DNA from: Eledone cirrhosa
Taxonomy: Eukaryota
NCBI GenBank assembly: GCA_964016885.1
Contig: OZ024741.1
Span: 348,936,001 to 349,000,000, forward strand
Direction: 5' to 3'
DNA: 64,000 nt
Shown: in pieces, positions 43,865 through 51,557 of the stretch
Layout of the letters: each line of letters begins with the position of its first letter
How positions within the stretch are numbered: the first letter of the stretch is position 1
Program-made: the position numbers and the translations under genes
The notes under the pieces: model-generated
Told to the model about the DNA's origin: nothing
Seen by the model: only the letters and a program-made list of their open reading frames with translations
The model's database searches: none

Positions 43865-43891
43865 GTCATTTCCTAAAATAATGTCGCATAT
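43865..43891 (-). CDS. Candidate 27-nt ferritin micro-exon (ICDIILGND)
   Basis: Acceptor poly-T-CCAG, donor GTAAGT, phase 0/0, open frame; resembles the ICGFV part of the snail yolk-ferritin insert (recalled, not aligned). Confidence 0.6.
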
Positions 43892-44610
43892 CTGGAAAAA
43901 AAAAATAAAGATTAAATTAATGATGTTGATACTGCTGCTGTCGTTTTGTTGAAAGGTGGATAAGAGTGGCAAGCATGGTCCAAGAGAACAGGCCAGCCAA
44001 GAGTATACACCTAAAAATCGGAACTGAATAAGTGGGAGAAGTCTCTTGTGCTAGCGGGAAGGGCAACTGGGTTTTTAAAGGGAGGGGTGAGGGGTTTCCA
44101 CGCTTAGTCCAACGAAGTCTCCTCTCTATTGAGGAATACTCAGTTATAGCCCTTGGCAGTAGAGACTTCTGGTGTCTTTGGCCCTAGGGCTACCTCCCTA
44201 CTTACCAGCATAGGTGCTGAGCTGGCCAGCCGCAGGTTTGAGCCTCGCGAGATGGAATGGCTCTTCTAGCGCATCTCCCTTACCATCCTCCGGGGAAACA
44301 CCTCCATTCTGTCCGCCGGGGCTGTGGGGCGGCAGTACGTAGAACCCCATTTGCTCATAAAAGTGAGAGATGAGTAGGGCGAGAGAGATGAAGGCGATAA
44401 CAGTGGGAGTTCCGCTCTTCCATGTGTGGACACATTAGTAAGCACTTAGAATTTAGTTTATTTAACATTGTATTGTTGTCTCTTCTTTTTCATTTTCCTT
44501 AAACTTACTTATTCGGAAAACCCATACACTCACATGTATTCCCTTCTCCTCGACAATGTCCACACGCAATTAATGTTTCGTTCGTTGACATCTTTAATGT
44601 TTTCTTCATG

Positions 44611-44774
44611 TAAGCCCAGCGGAACGGGAAGATTTTCACGACGGCTTACTTTTTGCCGTCATCCAGGCCATGCATTATGATCTCAAAGCTTACTTCAACG
44701 GGAATCATAATGCATGGCCTGGATGACGGCAAAAAGTAAGCCGTCGTGAAAATCTTCCCGTTCCGCTGGGCTTA
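44611..44774. repeat. Perfect 71-bp inverted repeat with 22-bp spacer
   Basis: 44611-44681 is the reverse complement of 44704-44774; followed by (TA)n. Confidence 0.9.
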
Positions 44775-45140
44775 TATATATATAGGCGAAAGCTTCTAAT
44801 TCAATTTTTAAATCCTGCTCGGCCTCTCCTAAACAAAGATATTTTGTTCTTATGTATGTTTCTGTGTGTGTGTGTGTGTGTGTGTGTGTGTGTGTGTGTG
44901 TGTGTGTGTGTGTGTGTGTGTGTGTGTGTGTGTGTGTGTGTGTGTGTGTGTTGTCTGTGTGTGTATACTATGTTAAATACCAATATATATTCCATATGTA
45001 TAATGACCATGTTTGTCAGTAAATAAGCTCAATTGATCTTGATTCAAAGTCTCAATTATTTAAATTTAAGACATATGTAGAGAGAAATAACCTTGTATCG
45101 TTCTATAAACACATGGCATTTTGTACACATACATACAGAG

Positions 45141-45337
45141 CAGGGGTGTGCAACATATTCCATTGGCAGGCACATAACCCTATCAGTGAAGGTCAACTAA
45201 CATAAAATTATATTACGGTTACGAAAGATTTTTTTAATAAGTCTAGAAGATAAAAATTAAAAACGGTCATCGCGTGTCACTCAGACTAGTATGGTGGGCC
45301 GGATTGTGGCCCGTGGGTCGCCTGTTGCACACCCCTG
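45141..45337. mobile_element. hAT-type MITE
   Basis: 14-bp TIR CAGGGGTGTGCAAC; 8-bp TSD ATACAGAG/ATATAGAG. Confidence 0.85.
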
Positions 45338-45586
45338 ATATAGAGCAAATAACATTCAGAAAAGTAAACGTAATTTAAGTCATGACTTTTTACCATCCTA
45401 AAGTGTCTATCTATTCCTGAGTATTATTTGCTTTCTCTATATATATATGAGTACAAAATGTTATGTATTTTTCAAACGATGAAGGCTTCTTTCCCTCTAC
45501 ATATATCTTTTAAATATAATTATATATATATATATATATGGGAGGGTCATATATATATATAGAAATATATAGATATATAGATATAT

Positions 45587-46090
45587 ATTGGAGGGTCATG
45601 CTGCCAATGAAAACACAGGCACCTGTTGGTTTTCACTTTAAATTTATTATAAATTTCCGGTTGGTTCGTTAGTTTGTTCGATAACCGGATGGTGGTTTAT
45701 ATATATAGTCAAAGCTCTTTCGTCACACATTATGTGACCTCCTCAATGAGTGGGTTTTTATTTTGTGTCGTCTCTCCTTTGTTCTGTCCTACACCATCGT
45801 GTTGACATAAGAAACAAGATGGTTTAGGACAGAACAAAGGAGAGAGATAAAATAAAAACCCAGTCACTGAGGAGGTCACAGAATGTGTTACAAAAGAGCT
45901 TTGAGAATATATAAACAACCATCCGTTTATCGACCCAACCAAACAACCGGAAATTTATAATAAATTGAAATGAAATCCAACAGGTGCGTGTGTTTTCATT
46001 GGCAGCATGACCCTCCCAAAGTATAACAATATCTGTTTCAATGCACGTTTTCAGATAAGAAATCTTGCAAAAGAAATTTCAAAAACGAAA
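45587..46090 (+). mobile_element. Fold-back pLTR, same family as 26208-26950, with a decayed HHR in each arm
   Basis: HHR remnants at ~45705-45750 (-) and ~45862-45906 (+). Confidence 0.75.
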
Positions 46091-48405: not shown

Positions 48406-49610
48406 CAGGGTGGGGCATAATTCCTGTTACAAAGTTTTAAATCAATTTAAAAATACATTATGTTGCTAATATAACTAATATATTTGTATCAAATCCATGC
48501 ACTATAACCATATTAACTATTTTTCAGAACATTACTCCATTAACAATTTGCAATGTCCATAGAATTGAAAAGAAAGTTCATAATAGAGAAGCATGAAAAA
48601 GGCCTGACTCCACCCAAGATATTTAAACTGGGGGAAATTCTTAAGATCAATAGAATGTTGATCAAGAGGACAATCGATCGATTTAAGGAAACTTCCTCGA
48701 TCAGAAAAATGGCAGAAGAAGCAGAAACATCGCCGAGAACTATGCGGAGGATATGTCGAGATGATCTTGGGATGTCACCCTATAAGTTCCAAAAGAGGGA
48801 GCTTCTTTCTGCAGCCACAATTGAAAAGAGGCTCTCAAGAAGTAAACTGTTATTGAACTGTATCAAGGATGGCACGCTGCAAAACATCATCTTTACAGAT
48901 GAGAAGTTATTCACTGTGCAGCAGTCTCACAATCATCAAAGTGATCGAGTACTTGCAAAAAGTCTAAAATCAATTCCTTCAAGTGTAGGAAAAGTGTTCA
49001 GAACACAGAAACCAGCATCAGTGATGATTTGGGCAGCCATTTCTGAAAGAGGTAAGTCTCCTCTGATTTTTGTGCCTCAAGGAGTTAAAATTAACAAAGA
49101 ACTTTGCATAAAGGATATTTTGGAAGGAGCACTGATGCCATAGTGCATATCTGTTTATGGCGATGACATTTGGACTCTCCAACAAGATGGAGCGACGAGC
49201 CACACTGCTTGCATAACACAACAGTGGTGTAGAGACCATTGTTCTGCATGGATCAGTAAGGAAGAGTGGCCTCCCACATCACCAGATCTCAACCCTCTCG
49301 ATTTTTCTTTATGGCCAATTCTTGAGAGTGAAACCTGCTCTACTCCTAGCCAAAATATTGAAACTCTAAAATCAAAACTGAATAAAGTATGGGAGAAAAT
49401 AACCATGGAAACTGTTCGTGCAGTCATCGAAGACTTTCCTAGAAGACTTCCAGTGGTGGTGAGAGTTAGAAGAAAGCATTTCGACTAAATGTTTGTGCAG
49501 TTATTTAATAGTATATTACTTACTATTTGTTGAAGTCAGATTTTGAAATAAATGTTTTTTTCAAGAACTATTTGCATTTTATTTTGTAACAGTTTTTATG
49601 CCCCACCCTG
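48406..49610 (+). mobile_element. maT (DD37D) transposon with intact TIRs
   Basis: TIR CAGGGTGGGGCATAA..TGTTACAAA within (TA)n; transposase 48553-49488 with one in-frame TAG (49141); FTDEK, QQDGA and SPDLNPLD with 37 residues between D2 and D3; apparent deletion in the HTH region. Confidence 0.92.
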
Positions 49611-49639
49611 TATATATATATATATATATATATATATAT

Positions 49640-50450
49640 ATTTGAAAAGGGAAGTAAGTATTTAAGGGTCTGCTTTTCTTTTTTTTTTTTCTTTCTTTGA
49701 TTCGTCAAATTGACATTATTGAAAAAATGAGTGGGACAATTCTTTGAAAAGAAAGAGTTTTATAATGTATATAAACTATATAAAGTATTACCGGTTTCGA
49801 TGTATTAGTAAAATTCATGTTATCAAATGTTAAGTATTACAATTAAAAAGAATTAATAAGGATTAAAAACTAAAAATTAAAGATTTAAAATTAAGTGTTG
49901 AGGTAAGTGTTTTCATATTCCTTGTTGAGAAGGAGGCTGGAAAATGAACTCTTGTGTATATATAGAGAGAGGGGTGGTAGTAGCAGCAACAGTGCTGGTA
50001 GTTGTGTTTCTTCACTTAGAACAAAATTATTTCTAGGGACAAAGGAAATATTCTGTAAATATGTGTGTATCTCAATTGTGTTAGTGGACTGATCAAGAGT
50101 TGAGATGGGGATGAGGAAGGGGGGAATTGTAAGCTAGAGCCAAATTGTATGCGATTGGCAACAGTAGGGTTGTAAAAGAAATTCTATTTTCGGAATATGG
50201 TTTTAAAGAGTGTGAGTGTGTATGTGCGAGAGTGTATATATAAAAAAATATTAATTCTTTTTAATTGTCATACTTAACATGTGATAAGATGAATTTACTA
50301 ATACAACGAAACCGGTTATACGTTATATACATTACATACATTATAAAACTCTTTTTTAAAGGAATTGTCCCGTTCCTTTTTTTTCAATAATGCCACTTCA
50401 ATGAATCAAAGAAGGTAAAAAAAAGAAAAACAGACATTTGAATAAATTTT
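49640..50450. mobile_element. Diverged fold-back with U3-A8-type HHR remnants
   Basis: 49787-49828 (-) UUGAUAA..CAUC GAAACCGGUA; 50281-50320 (+) GUGAUAAGAUG..GAAACCGGUU. Confidence 0.65.
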
Positions 50451-51119
50451 CCGTGCTATTTCCAATTTAACCTTCTCTCTCTCTCTCTATATATATATAT
50501 ATATATATATATATATGTATATATATATATATATGTATATATATATATAGTGTGTGTGTGTGTGTGTGTGTGTGTGTGTGTGTGTGTGTGTGTGTGTGTG
50601 TTTGAAAAGAAAAGGAAACAGCCACGCAATCAATACAATACAATAATGAAATATATTAGTTTAACGTTTGCTGTAGTACCAAAAGAGTCGTAACGTTTCG
50701 GATAATAGGAGGAATAAAATAAGGAATAGAAAGATAGAAATTGAGAAAAGGAAGAAACGGATATATTTCAAAGAACAGTAAAGAGGTCTCATCTTCCTTT
50801 AGTTAAATGGTTTAAAGCGCCAAGCTGGTATCTGGGAGATATGGGTTTTAATTCCTCATTGCAGCCGATGACAACTTAATTTTGCGACTTTTAAAGGTCT
50901 TCGCCCTAATTTTTCACCTGTTTCACAGCATCTCTGCGCATGAGCAAATATGAACTCTATATTCTTGGCGGTTAAAATCGGTGAGATCGGTTGGGTATGT
51001 AATGTATGTTGGGTTTTGCAAGAGATGTCAACATGAATGGACCTGTTATTTTTATCTAAAGACATTTTTTTCCAATTCCATCACTCCCGTCCCATCAATC
51101 TATCTTATTTTTCATTCTT

Positions 51120-51155
51120 TCTTCTGACGAAGGACTAGCGTCCGAAACGTTAAGA
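51120..51155 (+). ncRNA. Minimal type-I hammerhead in diverged fold-back (~50600-51240)
   Basis: UCUU CUGACGA AGGAC-uagc-GUCC GAAA CG UU AAGA. Confidence 0.75.
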
Positions 51156-51410
51156 CCCTCTTCCTGCTATATCAAGCGTTAACCTAATATATCACTTCCA
51201 TATACTGTACCGATTGTGTTGTTATTTCTGTTTACCTTTTACATACATATATATATATGTATATATATATATATATATATATATATATATATATATATAT
51301 ATATATATATATATATATATACATGTGTGTCTGTGTGTGTGTGTGTGTGTGTGTGTGTGTGTGTGTGTGTGTGTGTGTACAGAAATGTCAAAATCAATAT
51401 TCCAGCTTAC

Positions 51411-51557
51411 CTTAATATCGTTGAAGATAACTTTACCGCCACGTTTGTTGATGTACGTTAATAGGTTGTCGGCATGGGTTCGTTCTTCAAGAGATTCTCT
51501 GGCAAAGAACTTGGTAAATCCGGGCAAAGCAATATCACTTCGCCCGAAAAAATATGA
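51411..51557 (-). CDS. Ferritin (yolk/secreted-ferritin-like) internal exon
   Basis: 147 nt, TTTCACAG acceptor, GTAAGC donor; SYFFGRSDIALPGFTKFFARESLEERTHADNLLTYINKRGGKVIFNDIK; same boundaries as the second coding exon of animal H-ferritins. Confidence 0.92.

What the first reader, a model, noticed from the sequence alone, without database searches (positions are those of the whole stretch)
43865..51557. Yolk-ferritin-like BC-loop insert apparently built from two micro-exons
Seen: downstream of the ferritin exon on the minus strand are 39-nt and 27-nt phase-0 open segments with strong splice signals, giving ...GGKVIFNDIK|YYDNCQQLNRSGS|ICDIILGND. Established: Lymnaea yolk ferritin has a Cys-containing insert at this position (recalled as ..LKDACETV..CICGFV..). 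Inference: this insert is shorter and encoded by symmetric, skippable micro-exons, so isoforms could differ in disulfide or surface-loop content. The ORF track cannot show these exons.
Basis: partly seen in the sequence, partly recalled or inferred. Interest (0 to 1): 0.72.

Follow-up and report, generated by a model that had tools for sequence, protein, structure and literature searches.

The report
Two tiny exons, octopus secreted ferritin
An octopus-family iron-storage gene has two tiny exons (39 and 27 bases) that encode the cysteine-bearing loop typical of mollusc secreted 'yolk' ferritins; the same two-exon layout occurs in a sister gene and in a bivalve-like gene, so they are likely an old, jointly spliced module rather than a splicing switch.

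Summary
Two phase-0, open, AG/GT-bounded exons lie at 46487-46449 (39 nt) and 43891-43865 (27 nt) behind a ferritin helix-B exon. They are 2 of only 4 strong mini-exon candidates in 648 kb of scanned strand, and each is the best match to an Octopus orthologue peptide. The gene has a signal-peptide exon upstream, no IRE-like hairpin, and belongs with molluscan secreted (yolk-type) ferritins. A paralogue in the same genome (36 + 45 nt) and a bivalve-like genomic contig (66 + 48 nt) split the insert at the same place, so the layout is ancestral. Skipping is possible in frame but not shown. All 27 short-contig homologues checked carry both halves. Cys1 and Cys3, one per exon, are kept in 29 of 29 insert-bearing rows, while Cys2 and Cys4 are lost together. 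A close homologue is modelled with a two-helix hairpin, one helix per exon-equivalent. One-exon forms occur only in genome gene models, plus one protein of unknown source. No RNA run was available. The gene's helix C/D exons were not found, probably because of an assembly gap 1.5 kb downstream. Verdict: real, a new member of a known family; modest interest.

The parts
51411..51557 (-). Exon 3 of a secreted yolk-type ferritin: helix B and start of the BC loop, with equivalents of ferroxidase ligands E61/E62/H65 (human H numbering, recalled). Exon 1 (signal peptide, G000:C2:349008085-349008184) and exon 2 (helix A, G000:C2:349003050-349003147) lie right of the window.
   Evidence: five exons join in frame, 137 aa, no stop
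46488..51410 (-). Intron, 4923 nt, GT-AG, phase 0; repeat-rich, with a Tc1/mariner-like remnant
46449..46487 (-). Mini-exon ME1, 39 nt, 13 aa: Cys1 of the insert and an Asn-Arg-Ser N-glycosylation sequon; predicted first helix of the hairpin
43892..46448 (-). Intron, 2557 nt, GT-AG, phase 0; same position as the intron that splits the CxC motif in the paralogue and in L095
43865..43891 (-). Micro-exon ME2, 27 nt, 9 aa: Cys3 of the insert; predicted second helix of the hairpin
42163..42362 (.). 200-N assembly gap 1.5 kb downstream of ME2; likely hides the helix C and D/E exons (and possibly one more small exon)
   Evidence: 3' exons not found; two contigs run 224 bases past the gap edge

Best explanation
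These are two real coding exons of a likely secreted, yolk-type ferritin gene of an octopod; they are likely spliced in together and encode a 22-residue BC-loop insert predicted to fold as a two-helix hairpin that is likely closed by a disulfide between the cysteine of each exon. Shown: exon coordinates, splice sites, phase, homology to Octopus peptides, signal-peptide-like exon 1, and the same two-exon split in a paralogue and a bivalve-like gene. Inferred: joint inclusion; Cys1-Cys3 (and, in 4-Cys relatives, Cys2-Cys4) disulfides formed in the secretory pathway; an N-glycan on the ME1 sequon; an outward-facing hairpin on the 24-mer. Borrowed from snail work: synthesis in the digestive gland, secretion into haemolymph, and iron delivery such as oocyte uptake. 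The insert is a candidate surface determinant for that uptake.
For: Exons real: 2 of 4 strong candidates among 167; top homology ranks; Octopus models hold each peptide right after the helix-B exon. Ancestral layout: (paralogue at G000:C2:269.15-269.18 Mb, 36 + 45 nt, phase 0); both paralogue exons are included in the O. bimaculoides, O. sinensis and O. vulgaris models and in Argonauta; (L095, 66 + 48 nt, 66% identical to the Mya arenaria model P0185). Joint inclusion: 27 of 27 proteins from 0.9-3.9 kb Logan/JGI contigs, 14 clusters, hold both halves; 7 of 7 intronless yolk-type contigs, partly the same sequences; P0012, with both halves, is sister to the Octopus orthologues, 97/90. Disulfide pattern: (Cys1+Cys3 in 29 of 29 rows; Cys2+Cys4 both 18, neither 10, Cys4 only 1, Cys2 only 0; 2-Cys state needs 4 changes on the tree). 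(AlphaFold2 of P0012, mean pLDDT 87.4: helices 99-105 and 109-117, block pLDDT 88-93). Secreted type: hydrophobic N-terminal exon; no IRE-like hairpin in 3 kb upstream, while 2 of 3 soma-ferritin genes tested have one; defining features from PMC10799875 section 11.
Against: No transcript of this gene was seen. The O. vulgaris model P0005 joins exon 3 directly to the ME2 counterpart; the O. bimaculoides models P0001/P0004 hold only the ME1 counterpart; the Elysia model P0018 has no insert; P0131 (source not looked up) seems to hold only the second half. Assembled contigs and 90%/50% clustering drop minor isoforms, so 27 of 27 cannot exclude low-level skipping. That those contigs are mRNA is inferred from intronless ORFs, not recorded. 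The 29 rows were picked by me as insert-bearing, and kin share states. S-S distances could not be read from the model. The model is of a homologue (P0012), not of this gene. The 3' exons were not found, so a truncated gene is not excluded.
Confidence: 0.78

Rival explanations
1. Regulated cassette exons: ME1 and/or ME2 are skipped in a tissue- or stage-dependent way, giving subunits with no insert, a free cysteine, or no glycan site.
For: Both exons are phase 0 and multiples of 3. Octopus models each hold only one of them. An Elysia model lacks the whole insert, though its sister in the tree has it.
Against: All one-exon or no-insert forms with a known source are genome gene models. The O. bimaculoides filler peptide ends like an acceptor read in frame and recurs as an N-terminal extension in a fragmented O. 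sinensis model (my inference). 27 of 27 short-contig homologues are complete. Single skipping would leave an unpaired Cys in a secreted protein. Consensus donors and no TGC within 50 nt of any of six insert-exon acceptors, unlike eMIC targets (PMC8797185).
Confidence: 0.13
2. The exons are real in origin, but this copy is a truncated or decaying gene that lost its helix C-E exons.
For: No helix C or D exon in about 270 kb downstream or in two genome-wide searches, although paralogue D exons were found.
Against: A scaffold gap lies 1.5 kb after ME2, and real sequence continues into it. The five exons found are open, in phase and have intact splice sites. Orthologues in Octopus are complete.
Confidence: 0.07
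3. The two segments are chance AG-GT pieces of intron.
For: Segments are short; 2 other strong candidates occur in the 648 kb scanned.
Against: Each is the top match to an orthologue peptide, and the two are in the right order, strand and phase. The same layout occurs in two other genes.
Confidence: 0.02

Closest known systems
Yolk (secreted) ferritin of Lymnaea stagnalis and Biomphalaria glabrata (PMC10799875, section 11 and passages read; von Darl et al. 1994 seen only as a reference entry); Patella vulgata 'yolk ferritin' XP_050398030.1
   Same: Signal peptide, no IRE found, Cys-bearing insert between helices B and C, Ile-Cys at the start of the second half.
   Different: Insert 22 aa in two exons versus 42 aa. 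Two Cys (Cys1, Cys3) versus four. Extra N-terminal Cys pair. Yolk or digestive-gland role untested in cephalopods.
Octopus orthologues: O. vulgaris CAI9733223.1, O. bimaculoides XP_052828977.1/XP_014767931.1, O. sinensis XP_029657781.1/XP_029645377.1 (named soma ferritin-like, ferritin heavy chain B-like or venom-related Ferritin by their sources)
   Same: 82% identity over exon 3, 62% over exon 2; counterparts of ME1 and ME2.
   Different: Each public model holds only one of the two small exons or is fragmented; the 'soma' label conflicts with the signal peptide and insert.
Octopod paralogue XP_052828645.1 / XP_029644608.2 / CAI9733140.1 and Argonauta P0175
   Same: Same exon layout (36 + 45 nt, phase 0), short cephalopod-type spacer of 8-9 residues between Cys1 and Cys3.
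   Different: Keeps all four Cys; both small exons are included in the public models.
Cytosolic soma/H-type ferritins (PDB 5wpn, 6kh0, human H chain)
   Same: Four-helix bundle; intron after helix B at the same phase-0 site; ferroxidase ligands.
   Different: No signal peptide and no insert; IRE-regulated. None of the listed PDB hits covers the insert.

Membership tests
Ferritin (PF00210) | Ferritin-like domain above the curated cut-off | tested here: met
   34.4 bits versus 24.5 on exon 3 alone; the homologue's model matches H ferritins, TM by target about 0.86
Ferritin (PF00210) | Complete A-E helices and all seven ferroxidase ligands | tested here: inconclusive
   Helices A and B, with E27, Y34, E61, E62, H65 equivalents (numbering recalled), are present; helix C/D exons not found; present in orthologue P0005
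Molluscan yolk/secreted ferritin | N-terminal signal peptide | tested here: met
   Met-initiated exon with a hydrophobic core, homologous to the O. vulgaris N-terminus; judged by eye, no predictor run
Molluscan yolk/secreted ferritin | Cys-containing insertion between helices B and C | tested here: met
   homologous position, Cys1 and Cys3 kept; 22 aa rather than 42, Cys2/Cys4 absent
Molluscan yolk/secreted ferritin | No IRE in the 5' UTR | tested here: inconclusive
   no IRE-like hairpin in 3 kb upstream of the ATG, found in 2 of 3 soma genes; Rfam at gathering score found none even in the controls; the true 5' UTR is unknown
Molluscan yolk/secreted ferritin | Groups with yolk-type rather than soma ferritins | tested here: met
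   Octopus orthologues plus P0012 (97/90) lie outside the soma clade (95/85); midpoint root only, and the window's own protein was not a row
Molluscan yolk/secreted ferritin | Made in digestive gland, secreted to haemolymph, taken up by oocytes | not testable with these tools
   No RNA run listed
eMIC/SRRM3-4-regulated neural microexons | Weak 3' splice site with UGC motifs near the acceptor | tested here: not met
   no TGC in 50 nt upstream of ME1 or ME2; acceptor scores among the strongest in 648 kb; criteria from a PMC8797185 passage
eMIC/SRRM3-4-regulated neural microexons | Tissue-differential inclusion | not testable with these tools
   No RNA data

The most novel reading that the evidence does not exclude
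The yolk-ferritin insert is an exon-encoded, disulfide-closed helical hairpin as old as the bivalve-cephalopod split. Octopods switch its two small exons on and off by tissue, mixing subunits with and without the hairpin, its glycan site or a free cysteine, and so steer a secreted ferritin cage towards or away from receptor-mediated uptake (e.g. oocytes versus general iron transport).
Probability: 0.1. Interest if true: 0.6.

Novelty: new member of a known kind. Interest (0 to 1): 0.27.

Why it matters
It corrects gene models. The Octopus orthologues are labelled soma ferritin and each misses one of the small exons. It also shows that octopods carry at least two yolk-type secreted ferritin genes with a miniaturised insert. 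The insert is described as having no documented homologue (PMC10799875), and no listed PDB hit covers it. Here it gets a testable anatomy: two exons, two predicted helices, and predicted Cys1-Cys3 and Cys2-Cys4 bonds. The 22-residue cephalopod form is a minimal version for asking whether the insert mediates oocyte uptake. I did not find this exon layout or disulfide pattern in nine literature searches. That library lacks most subscription papers, including von Darl 1994, and no supplements were read. This is a useful annotation result, not a new mechanism.

Tried and rejected
RNA evidence: no RNA holder listed; the three runs laid behave as genomic DNA of one sample and show no splice joints. 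This is no evidence on expression. Helix C/D exons: not found by local scans of window plus flanks or by two genome searches. A weak look-alike at 42626-42543 has stops around it and lacks the helix-D motif; rejected. A third small exon between 43864 and the gap: no candidate. An orthologue of the third Octopus paralogue (P0046) in G000: no separate locus found. Idea that ME1 and ME2 are tandem duplicates or mutually exclusive: rejected, because homologues carry both in series as different halves of the insert. Soma-ferritin BC introns in the same genome hold no candidate small exons (0 in 3 introns). Solved structures: none of the listed hits covers the insert. A fold of the 4-Cys paralogue was not obtained, and the fold tool returns no coordinates, so S-S distances were not measured. 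ESM Atlas gave only generic ferritin clusters. Earlier scan findings: none relevant.
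Full report
Observation. The window is AT-rich, microsatellite-laden animal DNA from a 3.0-Gb assembly. Its ferritin exon at 51557-51411 (minus) is 82% identical to Octopus proteins, so the source is an octopod or close relative. In 324 kb around the gene, scanned on both strands with my own simple splice scores, 167 loose frame-preserving candidates of 15-60 nt were found and only 4 strong ones. These two are among the 4, and each ranks first of the 167 against the matching Octopus peptide (31 versus 11; 25 versus 10). They are not chance.

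The gene. Right of the window lie a helix-A exon (98 nt) and a Met-initiated exon with a hydrophobic stretch (100 nt) that match the O. vulgaris N-terminus. The five exons join in frame into 137 residues without a stop. The helix C and D/E exons were not found in about 270 kb downstream nor genome-wide with two queries. A 200-N gap sits 1.5 kb after ME2, and contigs from two of three DNA-like runs run 224 bases past its edge. Missing assembly is therefore the likeliest reason; truncation is not excluded. No IRE-like hairpin was found in 3 kb upstream of the start codon, whereas 2 of 3 soma-ferritin genes of the same genome have one. Rfam at its gathering score found none in any of them.

Family. 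Signal peptide, lack of IRE and a 42-aa insertion define snail yolk ferritin (PMC10799875, section 11; passages). That paper summarises earlier work as synthesis in the digestive gland, secretion into haemolymph and receptor-mediated uptake by oocytes. Searches returned many insert-bearing relatives, among them Patella 'yolk ferritin', oyster, Mya and Mactra models, and cephalopod-like proteins. With one regular-expression measure, the BC region is 25-26 residues in 107 of 288 stored proteins (ordinary ferritins), 45-52 in the short cephalopod-type inserts and 61-71 in most gastropod/bivalve forms. The O. vulgaris model measures 33; adding 13 for ME1 gives 46, inside the cephalopod range. In a tree of 41 proteins the Octopus orthologues group with P0012 (97/90), outside the soma clade (midpoint root, window protein not a row).

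The two-exon layout is old. A paralogue in the same genome (C2:269.15-269.18 Mb) has the order helix-B exon, 36-nt exon, 45-nt exon, helix-C exon, helix-D exon, all phase 0. Both small exons appear in the public models of three Octopus species and Argonauta. A marine-metagenome genomic contig, L095, is 66% identical to the Mya model and has 66-nt and 48-nt exons at the same place, the intron again falling just before the Ile/Leu-Cys of the second half. The insert was therefore split over two symmetric exons before bivalve-like and cephalopod lineages parted (one bivalve-like locus, taxon inferred from similarity). Cephalopods shrank them. Symmetry needs no special explanation, since the canonical ferritin intron at this site is phase 0.

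Mechanism. I aligned 33 proteins and dropped four before counting (P0005, P0004, P0018, P0008: one-exon models, a no-insert model and a soma control). In the remaining 29, hand-picked as insert-bearing, Cys1 and Cys3 are present in all 29. Cys2 and Cys4 are both present in 18 and both absent in 10; Cys4 alone occurs once (P0046, an expanded 7-Cys loop), and Cys2 never occurs alone. The two-Cys state needs four changes on the tree, so the joint loss is not a single event. This points to Cys1-Cys3 and Cys2-Cys4 disulfides (inferred). In this gene Cys1 is in ME1 and Cys3 in ME2, so the bond would link the two exons. AlphaFold2 on P0012 (mean pLDDT 87.4) gives two short helices, 99-105 and 109-117, at block pLDDT 88-93, one per exon-equivalent. 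Distances could not be read. ME1 also encodes an Asn-x-Ser sequon, as does its O. bimaculoides counterpart. No listed PDB hit covers the insert. The BC loop lies on the outside of the ferritin cage (own knowledge), so the hairpin is a candidate stability or receptor-recognition element; this is untested.

Skipping. No RNA run was listed, so inclusion was not measured. Against regular skipping: 27 of 27 proteins from short Logan/JGI contigs (14 clusters; mRNA origin inferred) and 7 of 7 intronless yolk-type contigs (partly the same sequences) hold both halves. None of six insert-exon acceptors has TGC within 50 nt, unlike eMIC-dependent microexons (PMC8797185, one passage). Single skipping would also leave a lone cysteine. 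For skipping: the O. vulgaris model has only the ME2 counterpart, the O. bimaculoides models only the ME1 counterpart, and an Elysia model neither. I scored 287 stored proteins on helices A-B only; 50 scored at least 10 bits more yolk-like than soma-like, and 6 of these 50 lack the full insert: five genome gene models (one truncated) and P0131, whose source I did not look up (the profile was trained on insert-bearing rows). Gene predictors commonly miss exons this small (own knowledge), and the O. bimaculoides filler reads like acceptor-side intron. Contig assembly and clustering, however, hide minor isoforms. I put regulated skipping at about 13%.

Verdict. This is a new, incompletely assembled member of the molluscan secreted/yolk ferritin family, with a miniaturised, ancestrally two-exon insert. 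The exon layout and disulfide pattern did not turn up in nine paper searches. Of the papers, I saw passages and one section of PMC10799875, passages of PMC7850002, PMC13026281 and PMC8797185, and only listings of the rest; no supplements were read. Interest 0.27.

Noticed in passing
G000:C2:269153820-269176599 (L055-L057): Second yolk-type secreted ferritin gene with the same layout (36- and 45-nt exons, four Cys); complete through helix D/E.
   Followed up: yes
L095:899-3069: Bivalve-like yolk ferritin gene on a marine metagenome contig, with the insert on 66- and 48-nt phase-0 exons.
   Followed up: yes
L001 (G000:C11:42354473-42354889, minus): Intronless 173-aa ferritin ORF, retrogene-like, in which several ferroxidase-ligand positions appear substituted (by eye).
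   Followed up: no
L061-L063 (G000:C20:34.93-34.97 Mb) and L059-L060 (C1:358.33-358.34 Mb): Canonical soma ferritin genes, at least two in tandem on C20 with IRE-like hairpins 157 and 319 nt upstream of helix-A exons, and one on C1.
   Followed up: partly
window 48544-49488 (+): Tc1/mariner-like transposase remnant inside the first insert intron (weak HTH and DDE_3 hits below cut-off; multicopy depth).
   Followed up: partly
window 55846-60138 (+): GC-rich, frameshifted LINE-like element inside the ferritin intron 2; weak Exo_endo_phos hit below cut-off.
   Followed up: partly
window 39724-41168, 14936-16348, 37576-38263 (+): Broken ORFs that look by eye like Penelope-type reverse transcriptase/GIY-YIG elements (recalled motifs); no Pfam hit for the five ORFs tested.
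   Followed up: partly
window 44650-44735: Both strands give near-identical exon-like peptides, i.e. an imperfect inverted repeat, perhaps a MITE.
   Followed up: no
P0046, P0180 (Octopus), P0015-P0017: A third Octopus paralogue has an expanded 7-Cys insert; some relatives carry an added N-terminal Cys-rich domain. No separate P0046-type locus was found in G000.
   Followed up: partly
P0005 versus P0003/P0004: The O. vulgaris model has five residues after the ME2 counterpart that the O. sinensis/bimaculoides read-through lacks, hinting at a third very small exon; no candidate between 43864 and the gap.
   Followed up: partly
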